NCBI RefSeq assembly: GCF_000223395.1
Contig: NC_015931.1
Location: 1,110,001 to 1,142,000, forward strand
DNA: 32,000 nucleotides
Reading direction: 5' to 3'
Source: Pyrolobus fumarii 1A
Lineage (GTDB): Archaea > Thermoproteota > Thermoprotei_A > Sulfolobales > Pyrodictiaceae
Shown here piece after piece: positions 3,511-25,058 of the stretch; the first letter of the stretch is position 1; each line of letters starts with the position of its first letter. The position numbers and the translations under genes are program-made. The notes below the pieces were generated by a model that worked only from the letters and a program-made list of their open reading frames with translations, did no database searches and was not told the DNA's origin.

Positions 3511-4380
3511 TCATCTCGTGATTATCTCCACGTCTAGTGCTTTGGCTGCCTCGCGGGCCCTATCGTCGGCGTAGCACGTTACGATGATCTTCTTTGTCTT
3601 TGGCGGCTTCACGACCTTCTGGTAAAGCTTGCACTTCTCGTTGAAGACTTTGACGTCGGCTACGCTGACGCTAGACTTCACCTCCACGAGGTAATGCGTA
3701 TCGTCCTTGACCACAACGTCTACCTCGATTAGAGTCGGGTATCCGAAGACTACACCCTCCCTATCGAAATACTCCCATTTCCCCACCTGGGCCACGCCGA
3801 AGTACTCATGGAGGAACCTGCGCAGACTCTCCCGGACAGCCTCCTCCGCGTACAGCCCCCACCTTGAGCCCAGCGCCGCGAGGCGATCCCCAAACCTCCT
3901 AAGCTCCTCTTGGAGACCCCTAATCACCCTGCTATGCTCCTCGATCCTCTCCTCGAGCTTGGCGACCTGCTCTTGTAGCGCCCTGATAGCCTTGCTGTGC
4001 TCTAGCACCTGCTCCTGGAGCTTCACCATCTGCTCTTGAAGTGCTTTGACCTGCTCTTGTAGAACCTTAACCTGCTCCTGAAGCGACCTAACCTGCTCTT
4101 GTAGCGCCCTTATAGCCCTGGTATGCTCCTCTATCCTCTCCTCGACTTTCAACAGTCTCTCTTCGATCCTGGCCATCCTCTCCTCGATCTTCGCGAGCCT
4201 CTCCAGGATCTCTAGGAGTCCTAGCTCAGCAGCAACAGCACGGCGAAACTCCCAGTCGCTGCGCAACAACTCCAGGATAGCACGCTTCAAGTCCCCCTGG
4301 CCCGTTGTACCCGACGCCATGTAGTGCAACCCACGATGCATACTTTGCAATTCTCTCGCTTTACTCTTTCTACCTGGCAT
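3511..4380 (-). CDS. Coiled-coil + PD-(D/E)xK nuclease-fold protein, paralog 1 (DUF3782/PDDEXK-like); likely true start ATG at 4320 (MASGTTGQGDLKR...)
   Basis: N-terminal LKRAILELLRSDWEFRRAVAAELGLLEILERL, then heptad repeats (IEERxxx, LQEQVxx x5). C-terminal GYPTLIEVDVVVKDDTHYLVEVKSS gives a D...E-x-K restriction-endonuclease-like core. Paralogous to 5753-6496 and 23130-23935. Confidence 0.8.
   Translation of the reverse strand: MPGRKSKARELQSMHRGLHYMASGTTGQGDLKRAILELLRSDWEFRRAVAAELGLLEILERLAKIEERMARIEERLLKVEERIEEHTRAIRALQEQVRSLQEQVKVLQEQVKALQEQMVKLQEQVLEHSKAIRALQEQVAKLEERIEEHSRVIRGLQEELRRFGDRLAALGSRWGLYAEEAVRESLRRFLHEYFGVAQVGKWEYFDREGVVFGYPTLIEVDVVVKDDTHYLVEVKSSVSVADVKVFNEKCKLYQKVVKPPKTKKIIVTCYADDRAREAAKALDVEIITR
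4008..4112 (-). repeat. Five tandem 21-bp units (cctgctcttgtag-type) encoding LQEQVxx heptads inside paralog 1
   Basis: The (c/t)ctgctc core recurs at 4008, 4029, 4050, 4071 and 4092, an exact 21-nt period; 3966 is also in register. Confidence 0.8.
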
Positions 4381-4727: not shown

Positions 4728-5027
4728 GTGCTGCTCTTGTCCACCTCTCGCCTTGGTGGGCTGTTGGCATCTGGTGGGATTATTGTCCGGGTGGACTCCA
4801 AGGGTAGGGTTACGATCCCCCTTGAGGTTAGGAGGAGGCTCGGGCTGAGAGAAGGGTCTATGCTCCGCGTCATTATCGACGAGGGCTCAAAGAGGATTAT
4901 GTTGGAGCCCGTGGAGCAAGGTACCGCTGAGAGATTCTACGGTGTTTTCCGCGTCAGGCGCTGGCCTCGTGACCTGGACGGGGTTGTTGCTGACGCGGTG
5001 TACGGGGCATGGCTAGGAGATACGTAG
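4728..5027 (+). CDS. vapB: AbrB/SpoVT-family antitoxin (VapB-type)
   Basis: VRVDSKGRVTIPLEVRRRLGLREGSMLRVIIDEGSKRIMLEPV is a typical SpoVT/AbrB swapped-hairpin motif. It overlaps the downstream PIN gene by 19 nt. The 5' end is probably shorter than the ORF call. Confidence 0.85.
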   Translation: MLLLSTSRLGGLLASGGIIVRVDSKGRVTIPLEVRRRLGLREGSMLRVIIDEGSKRIMLEPVEQGTAERFYGVFRVRRWPRDLDGVVADAVYGAWLGDT

Positions 5028-5425
5028 ATGTTAACGTGTTTGTCTACTGGCTTGGGGGCCACCCGGAATACGGCCAGAGGGCGCTAGAGTGGATACGGGA
5101 GATTGAGAAGGCTCCCAACGGGGCCTACATTACTGCTAGCCTTACGGTGTTCGAGCTTGTAGTGATAATGTCGAGGCTCACGGGCGCCAGGCTAGGCGAC
5201 ACGCACCTCATCACAACGATCCTGGAGGCCCTGGGTAGCCTCAAAGGCCTCAAGATAGTCGAGACGCTCTACAGTGACTACGTGGAGGCACTGAACCTCA
5301 TGAAAACATACAAGCTAGACTTTGAAGATGCGATACACCTAGCAGTAGCCATGAGGGTTAATGCCAAAGAGATAGTCTCCAATGACGCAGACTTCGACAA
5401 CACACCCCTGAAGAGGGTATTCTAG
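5009..5425 (+). CDS. vapC: PIN-domain ribonuclease toxin (VapC-type)
   Basis: Acidic PIN residues in the expected order: YVDVNVF, VFELVV, FEDAIHLA, SNDADFD. Size is 138 aa and it is operonic with an AbrB antitoxin. Confidence 0.9.
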   Translation: MARRYVDVNVFVYWLGGHPEYGQRALEWIREIEKAPNGAYITASLTVFELVVIMSRLTGARLGDTHLITTILEALGSLKGLKIVETLYSDYVEALNLMKTYKLDFEDAIHLAVAMRVNAKEIVSNDADFDNTPLKRVF

Positions 5426-5752: not shown

Positions 5753-6496
5753 CTAGGCTTCGGTCTCGACTGCGGGCTTTATCTCCACGCCTAGCTTCGC
5801 GGCTGCTTCGTAGGCCTTGGGTGATATGAAGCCGCCTACTATGAGTACGCGGGGTTTGACACGGTAGAACTTCTCGTATAGCTTGGCTTTGAGCGCTGCT
5901 ATCCTCACGTCGCCGGGGTCGACCCTCGACTTCACCTCTACTATCACGTGCCGTGTATCCCTTACAACCACGTCCATGTCTACCTCGCAGGGGTAGCCGT
6001 AGACTATCCCCTCCTCGTCACGCAACGTCAGCTTCGAGACACTACCAACCCCGAGTATCTCCTCGATGACGGTCTTCATCGTCTCCTTCAACCCAGCCTC
6101 GGTGACAAGCCCAAACCTATGCGCAACTATATTCACAAGCCTCTGCAGCTCCACAATCCTCGACTCGAGTCTTATGATCGCCTTGCTATGCTCGGCCATC
6201 TGCTCCTGTAGCTTGACAACTTGTTCCTGTAGCTTGAAGACTTGCTCTTGTAGCATTCTAACCTGCTCTTGCAGCTTGGCGACCTGCTCTTGTAGGGCTA
6301 GGGTCGCCCTACTATGCTCAGCCATCCGCTCCTCGAGCCTCTCTAGCCTCTCCAGGATCTCCAGCAGCCCAAGCTCAGCTGCAACAGCACGGCGAAACTC
6401 CCAGTCGCTCCTCAACAACTCCAGGATAGCCCGCTTCAACACATCCCTGTTAATAGCGTTGCTCAACACCAGCACCAACCTACACGTAACGCTCAA
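5753..6496 (-). CDS. Coiled-coil + PD-(D/E)xK nuclease-fold protein, paralog 2; start more likely GTG 6469 or TTG 6466
   Basis: Same 32-aa N-terminal motif as paralog 1, LQEQV heptads, and C-terminal GYPCEVDMDVVVRDTRHVIVEVKSR. Confidence 0.8.
   Translation of the reverse strand: MSVTCRLVLVLSNAINRDVLKRAILELLRSDWEFRRAVAAELGLLEILERLERLEERMAEHSRATLALQEQVAKLQEQVRMLQEQVFKLQEQVVKLQEQMAEHSKAIIRLESRIVELQRLVNIVAHRFGLVTEAGLKETMKTVIEEILGVGSVSKLTLRDEEGIVYGYPCEVDMDVVVRDTRHVIVEVKSRVDPGDVRIAALKAKLYEKFYRVKPRVLIVGGFISPKAYEAAAKLGVEIKPAVETEA
6199..6303 (-). repeat. Five tandem 21-bp heptad-coding units inside paralog 2
   Basis: The ctgctc/cttgttc/cttgctc core recurs at 6199, 6220, 6241, 6262 and 6283, an exact 21-nt period. 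Confidence 0.8.
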
Positions 6497-6704
6497 CCAG
6501 GCTTACATCGATTCAAGCATTGACATGCTATCAACACTTGGTCGAATAGCGCTGGCTAGCATCCCGTTCGAGAATATCAACAAGTGTTTGCATTGGATGC
6601 GGGGAGGCTCGAATAGGTGCTTTGGGGAGGTACGCGGGGTGCTGAGGATGGTGGATAGACATTAGCTCTGGTGTCGAGGTTGTTGTCCTCGGGTTGGCGC
6701 TGAG

Positions 6705-7805
6705 TTGGTGTATAATGGCGGTGTTTTTGTCGATGCTGGTTATCGTACTCTGCTTGGCACTGGGTTCTACGATAGGCGTGAGGAGCTTGAGAGGATAGCG
6801 GAGCTTCTACGCGCTGTACGTACCCTCGTTATCTATGGGCCTAGGAATGTTGGGAAGAGTGAGCTAGTGAGGTACTTCATAGCCCGGAGGCTTGGCCGTG
6901 GAGCGTTAACCGGTCTTACTAGGAGGGTTGTCATCGTCGACGCTCGTCAGCGAAGAGTAGAGCGGTATTTTGGAGTGGAGCGTGGCTTGCTCGGATTACT
7001 CGAGGAGATGCTTAGTTCCGTGACGGGTTTGCCTCGTGGCCTGGTGGGGCTCCTGGAGGAGCTGGTCTCTAGGCTTCGGCCTCCAATCCTCGTGTTTATC
7101 GATGAGTTCCATCTCCTCTTCCGAGGTAGTCTTGGGGATGCACTGGTCGAGCTCGAGGCTGTGGCGGGATTCCTGGCTAAGAGGGGGGAGGAGCAGATCC
7201 GCCTGGTAGTTACGGTGAGCGAGGGCTTCTTTGCGACTCTCGGTGCGCTGCATAGGCTACTCGGCTACTCTGTCGGGTATCTGCTCGTGGAACCGATGAG
7301 TGTCGGAGCTTTCAAGGCTCTATACGAGGAGTATCGGGGCAAGCATGGTTGCAGCATTGGCTTTGATCTGTTAACCCGGCTGGCGGGCACCTCCCCCGGC
7401 TACCTGGTAGACCTGTGCCCCAGGAGCGGGAGCCTGCTAGAGGAATGGGTCCTTGGCGAGCTGCAACGGCTAAGTGCTGCGCTAGACCTTGCAGCTGAAG
7501 CTGCGGGTATTAGCAGAGAGGAGGCTGTACGTGTTGCCACTAGGCTCCTACGAGGCGAGCCTGCAGAAACTCCTAGAGAGCGGAGGCTAGGCGAGAAACT
7601 GGTAGAGATGAACATAGCGTATCCGTGCCAAGCGCGGTTACAGCGGATATATCTCCCTCAGCTCCCGCTCTACAAAGTCGCACTGGAAACAGCTGTAAAC
7701 ACGGGACTCGAGAATATGGACTTAGACTTACAGCTTATAGCCGGGTACGAACAATTTACATTGAAACGCTGCTCCGATATAGTGTCGCGCCCAGCTGGAG
7801 CCTAG
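6705..7805 (+). CDS. Archaeal P-loop NTPase (Arch_ATPase/PF01637-like), divergent from paralog 2
   Basis: FYDRREELERIAELL N-terminal motif, Walker A GPRNVGKS, Walker B ILVFIDEFH. TTG/GTG start at 6705/6708. Confidence 0.8.
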   Translation: MVYNGGVFVDAGYRTLLGTGFYDRREELERIAELLRAVRTLVIYGPRNVGKSELVRYFIARRLGRGALTGLTRRVVIVDARQRRVERYFGVERGLLGLLEEMLSSVTGLPRGLVGLLEELVSRLRPPILVFIDEFHLLFRGSLGDALVELEAVAGFLAKRGEEQIRLVVTVSEGFFATLGALHRLLGYSVGYLLVEPMSVGAFKALYEEYRGKHGCSIGFDLLTRLAGTSPGYLVDLCPRSGSLLEEWVLGELQRLSAALDLAAEAAGISREEAVRVATRLLRGEPAETPRERRLGEKLVEMNIAYPCQARLQRIYLPQLPLYKVALETAVNTGLENMDLDLQLIAGYEQFTLKRCSDIVSRPAGA

Positions 7806-7874: not shown

Positions 7875-8135
7875 GTGTCTACATGTGCTCGTATACGGTG
7901 CCCCGTGGTGGCGCCGAGCGTTGTCCTATCGGTTCGTATACGGAGAGAGCTTAAGGAGGAGGCTGAAAAGCTGGGTATTGACATCAGGAGTGTCGTGGAG
8001 AGGGCTCTCGAGGAGGCCATCAGGAGGGAGAAGATTAGGAGATTGTTGAGTGCTGCGAGGGAGGCGGTCAGGGAGTTGAGCAGGGTTGAGCTAGAGGAGT
8101 GGGTTGCAGCGGTGAGAGAGGCGAGGAGGGGTTAA
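7875..8135 (+). CDS. vapB: Ribbon-helix-helix-type antitoxin (VapB-like); probable start GTG about 7905
   Basis: VVLSVRIRRELKEEAEKLGIDIRSVVERALEEAIRRE has a beta-strand-helix-helix pattern. It overlaps the following PIN gene. Confidence 0.7.
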   Translation: MSTCARIRCPVVAPSVVLSVRIRRELKEEAEKLGIDIRSVVERALEEAIRREKIRRLLSAAREAVRELSRVELEEWVAAVREARRG

Positions 8136-8548
8136 GCAAGCTACTCTTCGACGCATCGGCTCTATATCCTCTAGCAAAGCTCCTTGTCAAGAAGCCATAC
8201 ATCACGGAGAAGCTCCTGGATAGGCTCGCGATACTCGACTTGACCCTCTACGAGGCTTGCAACGCCGCGCTTATCGAGCACCGTAGGAGGCTTGCACAAG
8301 ACCCGCATAGGGTCTGTAAGTTTGTGGCTAACTTGGCCGAGCTTATCGAGGTTATAAGGGTGCAACCCGCGTGGCTCAATGGTATAATGGAGGTTGCACT
8401 TAAGAAGAGGTTGACCTTCTACGACGCCGCCTACGTTTACACCGCGACACTCTACAACTACACGCTTGTAACCGAGGATAGTGACATTCTACGTGCTCAT
8501 CCTAATTCAATACGAGCATCGCAACTCAAGCTAGAAGAGACTTTGTGA
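8099..8548 (+). CDS. vapC: PIN-domain toxin (VapC-type)
   Basis: LLFDASALYPL, LTLYEACNAAL, TFYDAAYVY and LVTEDSD give the four PIN acidic positions. Confidence 0.85.
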   Translation: MGCSGERGEEGLSKLLFDASALYPLAKLLVKKPYITEKLLDRLAILDLTLYEACNAALIEHRRRLAQDPHRVCKFVANLAELIEVIRVQPAWLNGIMEVALKKRLTFYDAAYVYTATLYNYTLVTEDSDILRAHPNSIRASQLKLEETL

Positions 8549-8637: not shown

Positions 8638-9207
8638 TTGCTTTGCTGTGTTCTTCCCGGGGCACCGCCCATCATGATTATTGTTGCTATCCCTCGGAGG
8701 CTTGTAGATGCTATCCGTAGACGCGGCCACGTAGACGTAGAGTCTTTCGTCTTGGAGGCTGTTGAGCGCGCATTGGATCTCGACCCTGAGGAGGAGCTGG
8801 AGACTCGTGTTGCTGTAGCCGAGCATATGCTTCGGCGTGCTAGGGATGTGCTCGAGAAGGGCGATGCCGTGCAGGCTAGCGAGAAGCTCTACAAGGCGGT
8901 AGAGGAGTGCATCAAGGTACTGGCCTGCCTCGAGGGCCTCGAGGAGTGTAGAAGAGCGAGAGAAGAAGGTCAATGGTGGACGAAACTGCTGAGTAGAGCT
9001 GCTCGTAAACTCTCCGTGAGGCTTAACGAGCCACTGGTGCTTGAAGCATGGGGACACGCGTACGACTTGCACGTCCACGGGTTTCACGAGCACGCGCTGG
9101 ATGCAGAGAACGTGGCTAGGTCAGTCCCTGTTGTGGAGAAGCTAGTCAGCTACACCAAAAGGATACTTGGAGAGAGGATCCGGCGCGACGGCAACAAGGC
9201 CGGTTGA
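8638..9207 (+). CDS. PaREP1-family protein with N-terminal RHH-like segment; probable start ATG 8674 (MIIVAIPRRL)
   Basis: LEKGDAVQASEKLYKAVEECIKVLA ... EAWGHAYDLHVHGFHE matches the PaREP1 hallmark (KGD-VQASEK ... LH-NFYE), as also seen in 20077-20607. Confidence 0.7.
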   Translation: MLCCVLPGAPPIMIIVAIPRRLVDAIRRRGHVDVESFVLEAVERALDLDPEEELETRVAVAEHMLRRARDVLEKGDAVQASEKLYKAVEECIKVLACLEGLEECRRAREEGQWWTKLLSRAARKLSVRLNEPLVLEAWGHAYDLHVHGFHEHALDAENVARSVPVVEKLVSYTKRILGERIRRDGNKAG

Positions 9208-9359
9208 AATACATCCTGGTCCTCGCGATGCACATAACCGTTCATCTAAACCCGCTCACGACATGTGTTGTTCATAGGTAGCGCTATGCTCCATAACGAG
9301 CCACTAGCCTATAGTAAAGTGGGCTTTACCCCGGAGGCCTAGAGTGTAGCGACACGGCA

Positions 9360-9983
9360 CTAGGATGCTCGTAGCTTTCCTCTTAGGTGGCTTAACGCTT
9401 GTTCGTGCTCCTGGCTCCATGCTCTGGCTTCTTCTAGCTTGGGTTTCACCCTCTCGACTATCTCTAGGAGCGTCTCTACCAGGTAGAGTATGTCTTGCCG
9501 TGCTTCCTCCTCGTCGGGGTACTTGCTGAGCGTCATGCCGGGGTCTGGCCCGTGATACTGGTAGTCATGGAGGTTGAGCGCCGTGTCTGTCAGGGAGCGG
9601 ATGTGCTTGTAGCCTAGTTGCTCGAGGAGCCTGGAGAGGGGCTTCAGCCTAGCCGTGGGCACCCTGGGTATCCCGACCTCCTCTAGCCACCTTCTCTCAT
9701 CCTCACTCCTCAGCAGGTTGTCCAACCTGGGCTTCTCCAGGGCGAGAAGAGCCGCTATCAGCGCCCTCCAGGCTTGGAATGTCTTGCCTGCCGCGTTGCG
9801 CGTGTAGCCCTCCTCGAGGAACCGGAGGGCGAGCAACGCCTCCAGGAGAGACTCCAGCAGCCTAGCGCCAGCGTAGCCCGTGAGATCCCGCTGCGGCTTT
9901 GGCAGCGGTCTCTCCAAGGCACGTGTAGTTACCGTCACCTCGCAAAACCCGTGTGACATGTATCTCCCAGAATGTATAAACAT
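9360..9983 (-). CDS. PaREP1-like protein (divergent)
   Basis: LEEGYTRNAAGKTFQAWRALIAALLAL ... ALNLHDYQYHGPD follows the same helix pattern as the PaREP1 genes, with a longer insert. Confidence 0.5.
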   Translation of the reverse strand: MFIHSGRYMSHGFCEVTVTTRALERPLPKPQRDLTGYAGARLLESLLEALLALRFLEEGYTRNAAGKTFQAWRALIAALLALEKPRLDNLLRSEDERRWLEEVGIPRVPTARLKPLSRLLEQLGYKHIRSLTDTALNLHDYQYHGPDPGMTLSKYPDEEEARQDILYLVETLLEIVERVKPKLEEARAWSQEHEQALSHLRGKLRAS

Positions 9984-10049: not shown

Positions 10050-10976
10050 CTAGTGCTGCCTGCTCTTGCCGAGGAGGTAGCCTATCAGTGCGGCTGTTAG
10101 CGTGAGGAGTAGCCAGGGTAGGGGTTCGGGTTCTCCGGCTCCCGCTGCACCCTCTCCAATCGTCATCGTCAATGTTACTGTTGTAGTTATGGCTGTGATT
10201 ATGGTTCTGGGCGTGAAGGTTACCGTCGTAAACCTCGTGACTGTCTCTGTGATTGTGGTGGTCTGTCCCGGCCTCTCGACGGTCACGGTCTCCACGATGT
10301 TCCTGATTGTTGTTCTTGTCACGGTGATTGTGACCGTCACGGTATGCGTGACTGTCCTAGTCTCCTTCTCCTCCCTGCACTCGGCTAGAGCCTCCGTCTT
10401 GGGGGCATAGAGGGGCCAGGTGGGGCGGAACTCGTTGGGGTAGTCGCGGGGCTCTGCTAGGCCCCGCTCCAGTAGCCACGCGTTGACGTTTAGGAGTGTA
10501 GTCTCGTTATGGTCTATGAGGAGCACGCCAACTATCCTCCCGTACTTGTCAAACACGTACACATCATCAACGTCTATATAGAGCGTCTCGTGGCCCGCGA
10601 GGAGCGCTTGAAGCGCACGCTTAGCCTTGATGCCCTCCGGCGTGTCAATCTCCGGGGCGTTCACGTCAGCAAGCCGAAGCCTCCCCTCGAACCCCACCAG
10701 CTCCGAGAACCTCTCTGAGCAGGCTTTCACCACGACAATCCTGACAGTGTCGCCGTCCACCACGTACTCCAGCCTCGCTATCACATCTACACGCTGCGCG
10801 GTTGCAAACAGCGGAGTAGCAACAACCAACGCTAGAACTGCGAGTATAGACACGAGTGTCAATGTAGAGATCGGCGACTGTAAACCATTGGCGGCGGGCA
10901 CACCCGTATGTGAATGGCCGTGGGCTAGCTTGTTTCCCACGGCTCTCACCGTGTAAGAGCAAGCATTGTGCGCCAC
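10050..10976 (-). CDS. Membrane-anchored thermonuclease (staphylococcal nuclease/SNase fold) with Thr/Val-rich stalk and C-terminal TM helix
   Basis: YVVDGDTVRI ... RLRLADVNAPEIDTPEG ... DKYGRIVGVLL ... NAWLLERGLAE is the SNase signature. N-terminal hydrophobic segment LVSILAVLALVVATPLFATA. TV-rich region aa 206-273 (nt 10158-10361). C-terminal LPWLLLTLTAALIGYLLGKSR. Confidence 0.85.
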   Translation of the reverse strand: MAHNACSYTVRAVGNKLAHGHSHTGVPAANGLQSPISTLTLVSILAVLALVVATPLFATAQRVDVIARLEYVVDGDTVRIVVVKACSERFSELVGFEGRLRLADVNAPEIDTPEGIKAKRALQALLAGHETLYIDVDDVYVFDKYGRIVGVLLIDHNETTLLNVNAWLLERGLAEPRDYPNEFRPTWPLYAPKTEALAECREEKETRTVTHTVTVTITVTRTTIRNIVETVTVERPGQTTTITETVTRFTTVTFTPRTIITAITTTVTLTMTIGEGAAGAGEPEPLPWLLLTLTAALIGYLLGKSRQH

Positions 10977-15984: not shown

Positions 15985-17379
15985 CTAGGCTTCGCTCCAA
16001 AGGCTCTCAGCCTCTTTAACGAGCTGCGGCCAGAGTAGAGTGAAGTCCACCACAGCGTGGTGACTATCCAGATGTCTCACGGGCTCTTCTTGACCCTCTA
16101 CCCTCCCCGCCACGACCAGATAGTGGTTCACGGGTGACTGGAGGCCCGTGTACGTCGCCAGCCTCTCCAGCCTCTCGAGGAGCCGGGCTGCATCCCTAGA
16201 GTCTATGCTTAGCTTCACCTCGATGAATGTCGTGGATGACCCCGGGTCACGCACAACCATGTCTATCTCCATGTCTTTCTTCCACCACGGCCCGTGTTCA
16301 ACCGGGGGCGTTGGTATAACCCCGGCCACGTGTAGCTCTGGAAGCAGCTCCTCAACAACTTGCTGGAGTATAGGGCCTAGCAGCCTCTCCCTCACGAGCC
16401 TAGATGCTATCTCTACCGCTCTTGCTGTGTAACCAGCCTCTACGAGGCTCTGCACGCGGGGTGTCACGGTGAACCAGTAGCGGAAGAAGGGGTCGCGAAT
16501 GTAGAGTCTCGATCCTCTCTTTGAGCCTAGGGGCGTTCTCCTCTCCAGTATATCCAGTTGCTCTAGGGTAGAGATGTAGTGGTGCACCGTCCTCGGGTCA
16601 ACCCCGGCTGCCTGCGCAGCCTCGCTTGGCGTTACGCGGCCCTCCGCGACAGCTCGTAGGAGTGAGAGGTATGTGCGCGGCTCTCTAAGCTCCTGGCGTA
16701 GAAGGTCGAGGGGTTCGGTAAGCAGCGGGTGGCCCGGCTCGAGCACCCGCTCTAGTAGCTCCTCTAGGCTCCGGGCGCCGCGCGCGTGGGATGCGTAAGC
16801 CGGTGTGCCCCCGAGCACCGAGTACATTGCGAGCTCCTCTAGAGGATCGCTCGCATCACGGTAGAAGCCGTGAGCTTCGATAAGCCTCATCGGGCGTAGA
16901 CGGATAACCCTACTCCTGCGCCCGAAGAGAGGCGCCCGATATCCTAGCAGCTTTTTCTCGAAGAACGAGACGGCTGAGCCACAGAGGATGAGCATCAGCT
17001 TAGACTCGGATAGCACACTGTCTATGCTCCTCTGTAGCCTCGAGGGTAGGCTAGGGTCAGCCTCAACCATATACTGGAACTCGTCGAGGACAACAACAAG
17101 CCTCTCGTGTAGAGCGGCTAGCCTCTCCAACGCCTCCACGAGGTCAATAGGCACATAGATCCCAAGCTGCTCGCCAACAGCAGCGGCGAACTCGGAGTAG
17201 AGGTCATCCGCGGGAAGCTCGGCAGCCACGTAGTAGACACCACGCTTGCCCCTCATGAAGCGGCGGAGTAGGGCCGTCTTCCCAACCCTCCTCCTACCAT
17301 AGACTACCACGAGAGAGAAACGACCAGAGGCCCACTCCGACTCTAGCATGTTAAGCTCGACGCGCCTATCGAGGAACAA
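15985..17379 (-). CDS. Arch_ATPase + wHTH + DUF234-type C-terminal PD-(D/E)xK-like domain (fused NTPase-nuclease architecture)
   Basis: TTG start. FLDRRVELNMLE, Walker A GRRRVGKT, Walker B VVVLDEFQ. The C-terminus PWWKKDMEIDMVVRDPGSSTTFIEVKLS has the same D...E-x-K arrangement as the stand-alone coiled-coil nucleases. Confidence 0.85.
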   Translation of the reverse strand: MFLDRRVELNMLESEWASGRFSLVVVYGRRRVGKTALLRRFMRGKRGVYYVAAELPADDLYSEFAAAVGEQLGIYVPIDLVEALERLAALHERLVVVLDEFQYMVEADPSLPSRLQRSIDSVLSESKLMLILCGSAVSFFEKKLLGYRAPLFGRRSRVIRLRPMRLIEAHGFYRDASDPLEELAMYSVLGGTPAYASHARGARSLEELLERVLEPGHPLLTEPLDLLRQELREPRTYLSLLRAVAEGRVTPSEAAQAAGVDPRTVHHYISTLEQLDILERRTPLGSKRGSRLYIRDPFFRYWFTVTPRVQSLVEAGYTARAVEIASRLVRERLLGPILQQVVEELLPELHVAGVIPTPPVEHGPWWKKDMEIDMVVRDPGSSTTFIEVKLSIDSRDAARLLERLERLATYTGLQSPVNHYLVVAGRVEGQEEPVRHLDSHHAVVDFTLLWPQLVKEAESLWSEA

Positions 17380-23129: not shown

Positions 23130-23935
23130 CTACCATGCATAGACCCTGACTCCCTTTGACAACGCGTATTGCACTATCTCCCTGCCTATCCTGGCCCCAG
23201 TCAACACCGGTATGACCTCCCTACCCGGGTTGCGCCTAGCCACAATCTCGGCTTTCGCCAGGAGCGCCCCAACATCGGCATGCTTGGGTTGAACCTTGAC
23301 CTCCACCACGTATACGCGCTTCTCTGTGACTATTAGAAGGTCGATATCCTCTGTATCGATGCGCGCGTTCCTCTCCCAACTGAGGAGGCGGTCACCCGAC
23401 GCAGCAACCTCCTGCACAATGATATCTAGAGTGAACTTGCTGTAGGTGCTTTCGGCGAGAGCACCGAGAGTATCAGATAGCCTCGCAACGCCCCCTCTAG
23501 GCTCCTAACTCTCCCCTGCATATCGCTAATCATGTCCTGCAAGCTCTTAACCTCCTCCCTCAAGTTCCCCGTCTCGCTCTTCAACCCTCCAATCTCCTCC
23601 CATACCCTCCTAACCTCCTTCCTCGTCCCCCCAATCTCTTCCCTCATCTTCCCAACCTCCTTCCATATTCTCTTGATCTCCTCCCATATCCTCCTAGTCT
23701 CGTCTCGCAACGCGCGAATCTCCTCCTGCACCGCCTGGAACCTCTTCTCGAACTCCACCCTCATCCTGCGCAACTCCTCCAACAGCTCCTCGAACCTCTT
23801 GTCGTGCACCTCAAGCCGCTCTAGTATCTCGAGCATGCCGAGCTCGGCAGCCACGATCCTCCTGAACTCCGGGTCTCTGCGGATAAGCTCCAGGAGGCGG
23901 CGCTTCAGCTCCTCATCGCTTATGCCGGCTGTCAC
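23130..23935 (-). pseudogene. Coiled-coil + PD-(D/E)xK nuclease-fold protein, paralog 3, split by a 1-nt frameshift at a C5 run (23491-23495)
   Basis: ORF 23426-23935 carries LKRRLLELIRRDPEFRRIVAAELGMLEILERLE plus heptads. ORF 23130-23417 carries DIDLLIVTEKRVYVVEVKVQ. Manual translation of the third frame links them: ...ARLSDTLGALAESTYSKFTLDIIVQEVAASGD. One extra G in the minus-strand GGGGG run restores a single frame. Confidence 0.75.
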
Positions 23936-24023
23936 CCTGTCGCACCCTAGAGTGAATCGTGGCCGCCCAGCCTCCTAAATAGCGTTGAGAGCACTCGAAG
24001 CTCTTGAAGGCGAATGTAGCGTC

Positions 24024-25058
24024 TTAACCGCCGCCCACGAGTTTCTGGATGGCTGTGCGGTAGACGGGGGTCTGCCAGGCGAGCCTCTGGCCGATGCCGA
24101 GCCTGGGGTCGATGGACGGCGGCTCGTCAACCCAGAGCCACTCGCTCCTCTCGGCGGGTATCTCGGCGACCAGGTTGAGCCCGACAAGCCTCTCGAGCAG
24201 GGCGGGTCTCTGTAGTACAAGCTTCTCGCCCCTAACCGGGTCGGCGGCGAAGACGCGAAGGGCCTCCAGGTCCTCGGGGTTAAGGCTTGTTACGAGTCTC
24301 TCCAGCATCCTAGACTCGGTGACGAACTGGACGAGACACTCCATGCTCCAGTCTAGCTCGTAGAGCATCCGGAGTATACGCCCGTTGCCACCAGTCACTA
24401 GCCACGCTTCCTCAGCGTCTAGCCCCCGTTCTGGTAGCTGCTCGTAGAGCCTCTGGAACCCCCTGCGCGACAGGTTCCACATCGCGTAGGTTAGGACCCA
24501 GTTGTGCCTAGCAAGCCTCCATCGCGATAAACCCTCGCTACTGGCCATGAGCACCACCATACGCTCGTATTCGCCCGGAGGGTACTCCAAGAGCTCCAAT
24601 AGGCTCTTTGCAAGTCCCTCAACACGTTCGAGACCAACTGCTTGGAACACATCGTCGAGTATCACAGCGAGGCGTGCACCACGAAGCCTTCTAAGCGAGT
24701 AAGCCACTAGCTCGGAAACAGCCTCAACCAGACCAGCAGCGTCGACACCCGCCAGCCGCTCGAGTAGTGCCCCTGCAACCCTCTTCACACCTTCAGACAC
24801 GCGGAGTCTCTCGGCAACGGGGCTCTCCAAGGGCCTCAGCATGACGACCTCATAGCCCTCCTCTTCGAACACCTTCTCTGCGCATAGGAGGAGGGCAGTC
24901 TTGCCGCAACCCTCCGGCCCGTATATCACGATAGGCAGGCTGGCGCCGCGAGCAGCTAGACGCCGTAGTCACTCGACACCCCGCTCTCTATCCACGAAAG
25001 ACACGCCAACGCCAGGCGTGAAGACGAGCCTCAAACCGCTACACGAATCTAGTGGCAT
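24024..25058 (-). pseudogene. Arch_ATPase-type P-loop NTPase interrupted by an in-frame TGA (24969-24971)
   Basis: The track ORF begins at GTG 24929, only about 5 residues before Walker A (GPEGCGKT). In the same frame upstream I read MPLDSCSGLRLVFTPGVGVSFVDRERGVE-TGA-LRRLAARGASLPIVIYGPEGCGKT. The F-x-D-R-E to Y-G spacing is the same as in the 15985-17379 ATPase. Walker B is AVILDDVF. Confidence 0.7.

What the first reader, a model, noticed from the sequence alone, without database searches (positions are those of the whole stretch)
5753..7805. Candidate two-gene module: archaeal P-loop NTPase plus coiled-coil PD-(D/E)xK nuclease-fold protein (intact divergent copy)
Seen in the sequence: the 247-aa protein has three parts. 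These are a conserved N-terminal helix (LKRAILELLRSDWEFRRAVAAELGLLEILERL), about 100 aa of heptad coiled coil (LQEQVxx x5), and a C-terminal restriction-endonuclease-like core (GYPCEVDMDVVVRD...VIVEVKSR). About 210 bp away, divergently oriented, is a 366-aa NTPase with FYDRREELERI, Walker A GPRNVGKS and Walker B LVFIDEFH. The same two families are adjacent again at 23130-25058, and an analogous pair of domains is fused in 15985-17379. Established: as far as I recall, these match DUF3782/PDDEXK-type and Arch_ATPase (PF01637-type) families, neither with a demonstrated function. Inference: an NTPase (sensor/motor) plus nuclease (effector) module. It sits in an island with VapBC, PaREP1 and HEPN-like genes, so it is a candidate defence, abortive-infection or DNA-surveillance system.
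Basis: partly seen in the sequence, partly recalled or inferred. Interest (0 to 1): 0.8.

Follow-up and report, generated by a model that had tools for sequence, protein, structure and literature searches.

The report
Neighbouring nuclease and ATPase, not a module
Two real genes of already catalogued but uncharacterised archaeal families (a coiled-coil PD-(D/E)xK nuclease and an AAA+ "ATPase_2") lie back to back in Pyrolobus fumarii, but the pairing is not kept in other genomes, so it is most likely a chance neighbourhood in a toxin-antitoxin-rich island, not a two-gene system.

Summary
Window 5753-6496(-) encodes a 247-aa protein (237 aa as annotated) with Pfam DUF3782 and PDDEXK_10. Window 6705-7805(+) encodes a 366-aa ATPase_2 (PF01637) protein. 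They are divergent and 208 bp apart, in Pyrolobus fumarii 1A.

The nuclease site (E133, D175, E187-x-K189) is invariant in 33 homologues, and the model's catalytic domain resembles NucS/EndoMS. The ATPase model matches the stand-alone archaeal AAA+ proteins SSO1545 and PABY2304.

- Of 79 species-level loci centred on the nuclease family, one has an adjacent ATPase_2 and seven have one within 10 kb.
- Of 149 immediate neighbours, the recurrent families are MNT nucleotidyltransferases, HEPN/PaREP1 and PIN.
- Five of six lineages of the ATPase's orthologues lack the nuclease.
- The closest Pyrodictiaceae relatives of the nuclease lack the ATPase.
- Where the two families do meet, order and orientation differ each time.
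- The window's three ATPase_2 genes share only the Walker A region.
- The "second pair" is a frameshifted nuclease next to a stop-interrupted ATPase.
- A third, intact nuclease paralogue (3511-4380) with no adjacent ATPase was overlooked.

Both families were already described and have no known function. Interest is low.

The parts
5753..6496 (-). Gene A: coiled-coil PD-(D/E)xK nuclease of the DUF3782 + PDDEXK_10 (DUF1626, COG5493) family. The maximal ORF is 247 aa; the annotated start is the TTG at 6466 (237 aa).
   Evidence: P0001 is 100% identical, Pyrolobus fumarii 1A. AlphaFold model with pLDDT 88.7.
6344..6439 (-). N-terminal conserved 32-aa helical motif of A (aa 20-51).
   Evidence: Nearly invariant columns in alignment A1. 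Identical in the paralogue at 3511-4380, with about nine single-base differences across the 32 codons, all synonymous. A motif-only HMM is specific to the family.
6116..6364 (-). Coiled-coil stalk of A: one 83-residue helix in the model. It is heptad-based, with two MAEHS[RK]A polar-core layers, and is encoded partly by 21-nt tandem repeats.
   Evidence: Literature on this family's stalks: PMC4786415.
5774..6118 (-). PD-(D/E)xK catalytic domain of A. E133 lies in helix 1, D175 in strand 2, and E187-x-K189 in strand 3 (247-aa numbering).
   Evidence: These residues are invariant in 33 homologues (numbering). [quoted passage not shown] The best Foldseek PDB matches are NucS/EndoMS 5gkj and 2vld.
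6497..6704 (.). Divergent intergenic region between A and B.
   Evidence: Read directly. No obvious TATA/BRE element or shared palindrome was seen. The bacterial-type promoter scan is uninformative for an archaeon.
6705..7805 (+). Gene B: stand-alone ATPase_2 (PF01637) AAA+/STAND-like NTPase with a C-terminal helical and winged-helix region. Walker A is at 6837-6860 and Walker B at 7089-7112. It has no nuclease domain.
   Evidence: AlphaFold model with pLDDT 88.9 and pTM 0.89. The best Foldseek matches are PABY2304 (2qen) and SSO1545 (2fna), followed by Orc1/Cdc6, CED-4 and Avs4.
3511..4380 (-). Second intact paralogue of A (289-aa ORF; about 48% identical by the match to P0011), not mentioned in the finding. 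Its neighbours are small ORFs and a VapBC pair; no ATPase is adjacent.
4728..5425 (+). VapBC-type toxin-antitoxin pair (MazE/AbrB-like antitoxin plus PIN toxin) between the two nuclease paralogues.
7875..8548 (+). Second antitoxin-like plus PIN pair, immediately downstream of B.
8638..9983 (.). Two PaREP1 (HEPN-superfamily) genes, at 8638-9207(+) and 9360-9983(-).
   Evidence: A link between PaREP1/HEPN, MNT and DUF1626 genes was reported in PMC3710099.
23133..23974 (-). Third, frameshifted copy of the nuclease family. The N-motif and coiled coil are in one frame; the nuclease domain, with D and E-V-K retained, is in another.
24024..25058 (-). ATPase_2 of a different subfamily ('D-type'), interrupted by an in-frame TGA at 24969-24971 inside the conserved N-terminal FVDRE motif.
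15985..17379 (-). COG1672-type fusion of ATPase_2 + wHTH + DUF234, where DUF234 is a PD-(D/E)xK-superfamily domain. It matches PADLOC candidate PDC-S27.
   Evidence: DUF234 is classified in the PD-(D/E)xK superfamily in PMC3424549. It gives a weak match to the nuclease-domain HMM.

Best explanation
A and B are two independent genes that sit side by side in a variable island of the Pyrolobus fumarii chromosome. The island is rich in toxin-antitoxin genes (roughly 3.5-10 kb of the window: two VapBC-like pairs, two PaREP1/HEPN genes, two nuclease paralogues and one ATPase_2).

Gene A is an ordinary member of the known COG5493 family (DUF3782 + PDDEXK_10). This family is multi-copy, fast-turning-over and normally solo in thermophilic Thermoproteota.

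Inferred mechanism for A. Several chains assemble through the long parallel heptad stalk. By analogy with the N@d/beta-layer stalks described for this family, the assembly is probably a trimer. This brings the C-terminal NucS/Hjc-like Mg2+-dependent endonuclease domains together at one end. The strongly constrained 32-aa N-terminal helical head sits at the other end, as a likely partner-binding or regulatory module. The stalk is a spacer whose length changes in whole heptads. The substrate is probably DNA. The role is probably in genetic conflict (defence or addiction), given the recurrent HEPN/MNT/PIN neighbours.

Gene B is a stand-alone AAA+ ATPase_2 of the SSO1545/PABY2304 type with its own winged-helix region. 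It acts independently of A.

Shown: domain content, conserved catalytic residues, folds, and the lack of conserved pairing. Inferred: oligomeric state, substrate and biological role.
For: Identity of A and B:
- Pfam hits are above the curated cut-offs.
- The exact proteins are already in NCBI as a DUF1626/DUF3782 protein and an ATP-binding protein of P. fumarii.
- R127, G129, E133, D160, D175, E187 and K189 are invariant in 33 homologues.
- The A model has the canonical topology and a NucS/EndoMS-like domain.
- The B model matches full-length ATPase_2 structures.

No conserved pairing, seen from the nuclease side:
- 79 nuclease-centred loci from different species hold 96 family genes. A family-wide ATPase_2 profile finds hits in only 7 loci within 10 kb, and immediate adjacency only in L029.
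- In the Pfam census of 149 immediate neighbours, the leading families are Polbeta/NTP_transf_2 (8 and 6), HEPN (4), Peptidase_M20 (4, housekeeping), PaREP1 (3), PIN (3) and HepT (2). ATPase_2 is not among the 25 commonest.
- The closest relatives of A (Pyrolobus sp. at 60%, Pyrodictium abyssi at 46%, and a close relative of paralogue P0042) have no ATPase_2 within 5 kb.

No conserved pairing, seen from the ATPase side:
- The loci of B's orthologues L080, L081/82, L083, L107 and L110 have no nuclease. Only L108/109 has one, on the same strand with an opposite-strand gene in between.
- The arrangement differs every time the families meet: divergent, tandem in either order, or convergent.
- The nucleases involved belong to different subfamilies.
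- The window's three ATPase_2 genes share only the Walker A region.

Family behaviour:
- The window holds three copies, one of them frameshifted. Several other loci hold two copies.
- The family is not found on viral contigs.
- The N-motif shows only synonymous differences between paralogues.
- Stalk lengths are quantised in heptads.

Prior descriptions: PMC1913061, PMC3424549, PMC4786415 and PMC3710099.
Against: - Within P. fumarii, two of at least three or four family copies lie next to an ATPase_2. That is unlikely under uniform genome-wide placement (P about 0.001-0.015 for 10-40 ATPase_2 paralogues).
- Seen from the ATPase side, a nuclease-family gene lies within about 2.5 kb in roughly 3 of 25 further lineages (L108; the L085 group; L103), plus L029, which was retrieved through its nuclease genes. 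This is above a uniform expectation. I explain it by shared residence in islands, but I could not test that against whole genomes.
- Fusions of ATPase_2 with a PD-(D/E)xK domain (COG1672, as at 15985-17379) show that the two domain types can work together.
- The oligomeric state, substrate and conflict role of A are inferences without experiments.
Confidence: 0.75

Rival explanations
1. A and B form a dedicated two-gene system in which the ATPase_2 protein senses or motors on nucleic acid and licenses the coiled-coil nuclease as effector (defence or abortive infection). The pair is expressed from divergent promoters.
For: - Divergent adjacency with a 208-bp spacer.
- A second adjacency of the two superfamilies in the same window.
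- One further B-type locus with a nuclease 550 bp away.
- Fused ATPase_2 + PD-(D/E)xK proteins exist.
- The context is TA-rich.
Against: - Adjacency occurs in 1 of 79 nuclease-centred loci.
- ATPase_2 is absent from the commonest neighbour families.
- 5 of 6 further lineages of B's orthologues lack the nuclease.
- The closest relatives of A lack the ATPase.
- There is no conserved order or orientation.
- The ATPases of the two window pairs are unrelated beyond the P-loop.
- The second pair is decayed.
- An intact paralogue 1.4 kb away has no adjacent ATPase.
Confidence: 0.07
2. Loose, facultative partnership. Stand-alone ATPase_2 paralogues (B- and D-type) are exchangeable accessory partners of COG5493 nucleases, a split counterpart of the fused COG1672 proteins. 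They are used in only a minority of lineages.
For: - Seen from the ATPase side, a nuclease-family gene is nearby in about 12% of further lineages, plus L029 with two nuclease/ATPase pairs.
- Two adjacencies in P. fumarii exceed a uniform null.
- The fusion precedent.
Against: - The rate is about the same as for generic island families (HEPN, MNT, PIN) next to the nuclease.
- The arrangements are inconsistent.
- The nucleases involved come from different subfamilies, whose other members lack an ATPase.
- B has no similarity to D- or C-type ATPases beyond Walker A.
- D-type ATPases also occur as tandem arrays with no nuclease (L086).
Confidence: 0.1
3. A works with HEPN/PaREP1-MNT (or PIN) toxin-antitoxin-type genes rather than with the ATPase. 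This is the operonic association of PaREP1-type HEPN, MNT and the DUF1626 restriction-endonuclease-like protein noted by Anantharaman et al. 2013.
For: - MNT (Polbeta/NTP_transf_2), HEPN, PaREP1 and HepT are the commonest immediate neighbours of the family (clusters 1 and 10).
- PaREP1 genes lie 2 kb from A in the window.
- The published note in PMC3710099.
Against: - Only about 13% of immediate neighbours are of these types, so most family genes are solo.
- In the window, B and a VapBC pair separate the PaREP1 genes from A.
Confidence: 0.15

Closest known systems
COG5493 / Pfam PDDEXK_10 (PF07788, formerly DUF1626) with DUF3782 (PF12644): coiled-coil PD-(D/E)xK nucleases of Crenarchaeota and some bacteria (Knizewski 2007, PMC1913061; Steczkiewicz 2012, PMC3424549; Hartmann 2016, PMC4786415)
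   Same: Gene A is a member. [quoted passage not shown] No function has been published for the family.
   Different: Nothing essential. A keeps the motif III lysine, which some members (for example L085) have lost. Its stalk is purely heptad-based, with H@d-type polar layers rather than the nonad beta-layers highlighted for some crenarchaeal members.
NucS/EndoMS (PDB 5gkj, 2vld) and the archaeal Holliday-junction resolvases Hjc/Hje
   Same: They are the best structural matches (NucS) and the published profile matches (DUF91, Hjc/Hje; PMC1913061) for the catalytic domain. The spacing from D to ExK is the same.
   Different: A has no NucS N-terminal DNA-binding domain and no PCNA-binding motif was examined. 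Instead it has an N-terminal head and a long coiled coil. Sequence identity is only 17-23% over about 105-115 aligned columns. A is not a member of those families.
Stand-alone archaeal ATPase_2 proteins SSO1545 (PDB 2fna) and PABY2304 (PDB 2qen); Pfam PF01637
   Same: Gene B matches them over its full length by fold and matches PF01637 by sequence. Like them, it has an AAA+ core, a helical lid and a winged helix.
   Different: About 14-20% identity. B belongs to its own subfamily with an extra conserved N-terminal beta element (VDxxYRTxLGTxFYDR). The function of the whole family is unknown.
COG1672 / PADLOC candidate PDC-S27: fused ATPase_2 + wHTH + DUF234 (PD-(D/E)xK-like)
   Same: It combines an ATPase_2 NTPase with a PD-(D/E)xK-superfamily domain. 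One such gene is in the window (15985-17379).
   Different: A and B are separate genes whose pairing is not conserved. A's nuclease domain is PDDEXK_10, not DUF234. B lacks DUF234 and shows only P-loop similarity to the fused protein.
C3a181 (Tpen_1359 cluster), a candidate type III CRISPR accessory family (Shah 2018, PMC6546367; PADLOC PDLC01085)
   Same: A matches this profile over its full length (3.5e-13), so it is the same protein family.
   Different: The cluster had only 3 members and a low score in that study, and its 'diadenylate cyclase' label finds no support in the Pfam, NCBIfam or fold matches of A, which show only coiled coil and nuclease. No cas genes were seen among the window ORFs I scanned.

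Membership tests
PDDEXK_10 + DUF3782 (COG5493) coiled-coil nuclease family | Significant matches to PF07788 and PF12644 above the curated cut-offs | tested here: met
   PDDEXK_10 scores 64.9 bits against a cut-off of 21.2; DUF3782 scores 81 bits against 24.4.
PDDEXK_10 + DUF3782 (COG5493) coiled-coil nuclease family | PD-(D/E)xK catalytic signature (E in helix 1, D in strand 2, ExK in strand 3) on a restriction-endonuclease-like fold | tested here: met
   E133, D175, E187 and K189 are invariant in 33 sequences. The model topology is H-EEE-H-E. Foldseek gives NucS/EndoMS. Residue clustering in 3-D could not be measured because coordinates are not returned.
PDDEXK_10 + DUF3782 (COG5493) coiled-coil nuclease family | N-terminal coiled-coil stalk | tested here: met
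   The model has an 83-residue single helix. There are heptad repeats and many coiled-coil profile matches.
PDDEXK_10 + DUF3782 (COG5493) coiled-coil nuclease family | Nuclease activity | not testable with these tools
   No biochemical data were found for any member.
ATPase_2 (PF01637) archaeal AAA+ NTPases | PF01637 match above the cut-off, with Walker A and Walker B | tested here: met
   52.2 bits against a cut-off of 33.2. GPRNVGKS and LVFIDEFH are present, and G45, K51, D133 and E134 are invariant in 42 homologues.
ATPase_2 (PF01637) archaeal AAA+ NTPases | AAA+ core plus C-terminal winged helix, as in SSO1545 and PABY2304 | tested here: met
   Model with pTM 0.89. The top Foldseek matches are 2qen and 2fna over the full length.
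Conserved two-gene NTPase-nuclease module (the claim) | Co-occurrence of the two genes across genomes above background | tested here: not met
   Adjacent in 1 of 79 nuclease-centred loci, and within 10 kb in 7 of 79. ATPase_2 is not among the top 25 neighbour families. 5 of 6 further B-type lineages lack the nuclease. The closest relatives of A lack the ATPase.
Conserved two-gene NTPase-nuclease module (the claim) | Conserved gene order, orientation and spacing where both genes occur | tested here: not met
   The window A-B pair is divergent. The window's second pair is tandem with the ATPase first. L029 has one tandem pair with the nuclease first and one convergent pair. The L085 group is divergent. 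L108 is tandem with an intervening opposite-strand gene.
Conserved two-gene NTPase-nuclease module (the claim) | Partners co-evolve, so that linked genes form matching clades | tested here: not met
   The ATPases of the two window pairs are unrelated beyond the P-loop. Nucleases next to ATPases fall in different subfamilies whose nearest relatives (L019, L040, L047) have no ATPase.
COG1672 / PDC-S27 (ATPase_2 + wHTH + DUF234 fusion) | DUF234 domain fused C-terminally to the ATPase | tested here: not met
   B has no DUF234 match, and PADLOC gives no PDC-S27 hit for B. The feature is met by the separate gene at 15985-17379.
Known anti-phage systems in PADLOC | Full-length match of B or A to a component of a validated system | tested here: not met
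   B gives only partial matches covering its N-terminal part only, to mad8 and PDC-S01. A gives only coiled-coil matches plus the candidate cluster C3a181.
NucS/EndoMS | Two-domain architecture with the NucS N-terminal DNA-binding domain | tested here: not met
   Only the C-terminal catalytic domain aligns (103-115 columns). A gives no Pfam NucS/DUF91 hit.
RmuC (coiled coil + PD-(D/E)xK) | Match to the RmuC family profile | tested here: not met
   No RmuC hit in Pfam or NCBIfam at E <= 0.01. The resemblance is architectural only and comes from my own knowledge.

The most novel reading that the evidence does not exclude
The COG5493 proteins are stalked, probably trimeric, endonucleases. Their extremely constrained 32-aa N-terminal head docks exchangeable partners encoded nearby in conflict islands. 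Stand-alone ATPase_2 NTPases in some lineages (as in P. fumarii A-B, L108 and L029) and HEPN/MNT proteins in others would be such partners. The heptad-quantised stalk would set the distance between sensor and nuclease. That would make A-B one instance of a modular, previously unrecognised archaeal defence architecture.
Probability: 0.08. Interest if true: 0.6.

Novelty: already known. Interest (0 to 1): 0.2.

Why it matters
If the pair had been a conserved NTPase-nuclease system, it would have been a new candidate archaeal defence module in a hyperthermophile. The evidence says it is not. Both genes belong to catalogued families of unknown function, and their adjacency is not preserved.

What remains useful is modest:
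- The COG5493 family is abundant, multi-copy and associated with conflict islands.
- It has an intact nuclease site, a head peptide under strong purifying selection, and a stalk whose length varies in whole heptads.
- It is still wholly uncharacterised, so it is a reasonable target for biochemistry, but as a solo protein rather than as a partner of this ATPase.

Tried and rejected
- The look-up of encoding contigs for the other P. fumarii paralogues P0011 and P0042 returned nothing. P0011 turned out to lie in the window itself (3511-4380). The context of P0042 was approximated with its close relative P0048.
- The first alignment was too diverse for the search for related loci; a narrower one worked.
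- The sequence search of the PDB gave only coiled-coil matches. The PHROGs scan also gave only coiled-coil matches. The viral contig scan found no family member. So a viral or mobile-element origin is not supported.
- The NCBIfam scan gave nothing specific.
- Rfam found no RNA family in the window.
- The sigma-70 promoter scan of the spacer is not meaningful for an archaeon. I saw no clear TATA/BRE or shared operator by eye and did not pursue it.
- I considered that the D-type ATPase subfamily, rather than B, might have a real link to the nuclease family. Of 23 metagenome loci, 4 (two lineages) carry an N-motif protein nearby. I rejected it as a module because the orientations differ, the nucleases are of unrelated subfamilies, and D-type genes also occur as tandem arrays with no nuclease.
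- I considered recent gene conversion as the cause of the identical N-terminal peptide. I rejected it because the DNA differs at synonymous sites.
- The literature search on PF01637/DUF234 was swamped by DUF2345 papers.
Full report
**What is there.** The window is a piece of the Pyrolobus fumarii 1A chromosome. The product of 5753-6496(-) is 100% identical to a P. fumarii protein annotated 'protein of unknown function DUF1626 / DUF3782 domain-containing'. The product of 6705-7805(+) is 100% identical to a P. fumarii 'ATP-binding protein'.

Pfam confirms the recalled families:
- Gene A: DUF3782 (7e-23) plus PDDEXK_10 (7e-18).
- Gene B: ATPase_2, PF01637 (9e-14, 52 bits against a cut-off of 33).
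- The 464-aa protein at 15985-17379: ATPase_2 + wHTH + DUF234.

**Gene A in detail.**
- In an alignment of 33 homologues, R127, G129, E133, D160, D175, E187 and K189 (247-aa numbering) are invariant.
[quoted passage not shown] E133 opens the first helix of that domain, D175 lies in strand 2, and E187-x-K189 lies in strand 3.
- Foldseek against the PDB puts NucS/EndoMS first, and VC1899 and Can2 lower down. This agrees with the published profile links of DUF1626 to DUF91 (NucS) and Hjc/Hje (PMC1913061).
- Sequence searches of the PDB and of PHROGs hit only coiled coils.
- The family was described as a new PD-(D/E)xK family with an N-terminal coiled coil in 2007 (PMC1913061). It was listed with unknown function in 2012 (PMC3424549). 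Its crenarchaeal stalks were used as a source of unusual trimeric coiled-coil periodicities in 2016 (PMC4786415).
- A full-length match to PADLOC profile C3a181 traces back to a three-member, low-scoring cluster found near type III CRISPR loci (PMC6546367). That is a weak lead at most.

**Gene B in detail.** The model (pTM 0.89) matches the structural-genomics ATPase_2 proteins PABY2304 and SSO1545 over its full length. Orc1/Cdc6, CED-4/Apaf-1 and Avs4 follow. B is therefore a complete, stand-alone AAA+/STAND-like NTPase with a winged helix and no nuclease domain.

I ran it from both sides.

Centred on the nuclease:
- A scan of one genome per species returned 79 loci with 96 family genes.
- Unbiased clustering of about 1,000 flanking ORFs found no widely shared neighbour.
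- A Pfam census of the 149 immediate neighbours put MNT nucleotidyltransferases first (Polbeta 8, NTP_transf_2 6). HEPN (4), the housekeeping Peptidase_M20 (4), PaREP1 (3), PIN (3) and HepT (2) followed. ATPase_2 was not among the 25 commonest families.
- A family-wide ATPase_2 profile built by jackhmmer found hits within 10 kb in only 7 of 79 loci, and immediate adjacency only in L029.
- The closest relatives of A have no ATPase_2 within 5 kb. These are Pyrolobus sp. (60% identity, flanked by EMG1 and PurP-like genes), Pyrodictium abyssi, and a close relative of paralogue P0042 (P0048).

Centred on the ATPase:
- The loci of B's orthologues at 71, 65, 61, 51 and 40% identity have no nuclease-family gene, even by six-frame HMM search.
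- One lineage at 42% identity (L108/L109) has a DUF3782 + PDDEXK_10 gene 550 bp upstream. It is on the same strand, with an opposite-strand DUF7980 gene in between.

**The 'second pair'.**
- The ATPase at 24024-25058 is a different subfamily. It shows no BLASTP similarity to B beyond the P-loop, and it carries an in-frame TGA at 24969-24971.
- The nuclease-family gene next to it is split by a frameshift, although it keeps D and E-V-K.
- Among 23 metagenomic loci of this 'D-type' ATPase, two lineages carry a protein with the family's N-terminal motif nearby: L085/89/91 and L103.
- The arrangements differ: divergent there, tandem in the window, and tandem in the other order plus convergent in L029.
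- The nucleases involved belong to different subfamilies. Their nearest relatives (L019, L040, L047) have no ATPase.
- D-type ATPases also form a four-gene tandem array with no nuclease (L086).

It lies 1.4 kb from A across a VapBC pair and has no adjacent ATPase.

**Statistics.**
- With 3 + 3 genes among about 46 ORFs, at least two adjacencies occur by random placement with P about 0.04.
- Under uniform genome-wide placement the figure is 0.001-0.015, so there is local clustering.
- The window region 3.5-10 kb is dense in conflict-type genes: two VapBC-like pairs, two PaREP1/HEPN genes and an SNase-domain protein. The nuclease family's neighbours elsewhere are of the same kind. A link between PaREP1-HEPN, MNT and DUF1626 was noted before (PMC3710099).
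- Shared residence in variable islands therefore explains the modest ATPase-side association (about 12% of further lineages) without a functional link.
- I could not run the island-aware whole-genome test that would settle this.

**Most likely mechanism.**
- A is a solo, homo-oligomeric endonuclease. The single long helix cannot stand alone.
- The stalk is heptad-based, with polar-core layers (MAEHS[RK]A in A; VAENTKAI-type N@d layers in homologues). In related stalks these layers specify parallel trimers (PMC4786415). Linking the N@d motif to trimer specificity also rests partly on my own knowledge.
- This arrangement would cluster the catalytic domains at one end and the N-terminal heads at the other.
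- The head is the most constrained part. Its 32 residues are identical between the two intact window paralogues, which are otherwise about 48% identical. The nucleotide differences within those 32 codons (about nine) are all synonymous.
- In 68 family members the stalk ranges from 48 to 160 residues, almost always in steps of seven. This matches the 21-nt tandem repeats in the DNA. The stalk thus behaves as a length-adjustable spacer that keeps its register.
- Multiple copies, pseudogenes and conflict-gene neighbours suggest a role in defence or addiction. The substrate and trigger are unknown.
- B most likely acts on its own, like other stand-alone ATPase_2 proteins.

**Verdict.** The family assignments are right. 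The two-gene-module interpretation is not supported by comparative genomics. Both genes are members of already described families, so novelty is low. The main residual possibility, at about 0.1, is a facultative partnership between stand-alone ATPase_2 proteins and the nuclease family, echoing the fused COG1672 proteins.

Noticed in passing
window 3511-4380 (-): A second intact paralogue of the coiled-coil nuclease (289-aa ORF), 1.4 kb from gene A. A VapBC pair (4728-5425) lies between them. It was not mentioned in the finding and has no adjacent ATPase.
   Followed up: yes
window 6344-6439 and 4172-4290: The 32-aa N-terminal peptide LKRAILELLRSDWEFRRAVAAELGLLEILERL is identical in the two intact paralogues, while the DNA of the surrounding 119-nt repeat is only 89% identical. 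All differences within the 32 codons are synonymous. This points to strong purifying selection on the head, not recent gene conversion.
   Followed up: yes
window 6200-6295 and 4030-4204; proteins P0001-P0084: The stalk is encoded by 21-nt tandem repeats. Across 68 family members its length runs from 48 to 160 aa, almost always in steps of exactly seven residues (48, 62, 69, 76, 83 ... 160). The coiled coil therefore expands and contracts in whole heptads.
   Followed up: partly
window 23133-23974 (-) and 24024-25058 (-): Each of two neighbouring genes carries a single lesion. The nuclease-family gene has a frameshift but keeps its catalytic D and E-V-K. The ATPase_2 gene has an in-frame TGA at 24969-24971. 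This is either recent decay or sequencing errors.
   Followed up: partly
L086 4216-8992: Four tandem paralogues of the D-type ATPase_2 on one metagenomic contig, so this ATPase subfamily amplifies on its own.
   Followed up: no
L108 1820-2065: An 81-aa ORF carries only the family's N-terminal motif (E 1.5e-10 against the motif HMM). It lies 1.6 kb from a full-length family gene. It is either a head-only mini-protein or a gene fragment.
   Followed up: no
L085 2465-3334, L089 629-1477, L091 4713-5540: A divergent branch of the family keeps the N-motif and coiled coil, but its C-terminal domain reads E-V-A where E-V-K is expected, so the motif III lysine is lost. This kind of loss was noted for some DUF1626 members in PMC1913061. 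The gene is encoded divergently from a D-type ATPase_2.
   Followed up: partly
L001-L079 (immediate neighbours of the family): The most recurrent neighbours of the nuclease family are MNT-type nucleotidyltransferases and HEPN/PaREP1/HepT proteins, followed by PIN. This is consistent with the HEPN-MNT-DUF1626 association mentioned in PMC3710099. They account for only about 13% of immediate neighbours.
   Followed up: partly
window 10050-10976 (-): A 308-aa protein with a staphylococcal-nuclease (SNase) domain lies at the edge of the TA-rich stretch, next to the two PaREP1 genes (8638-9983).
   Followed up: no
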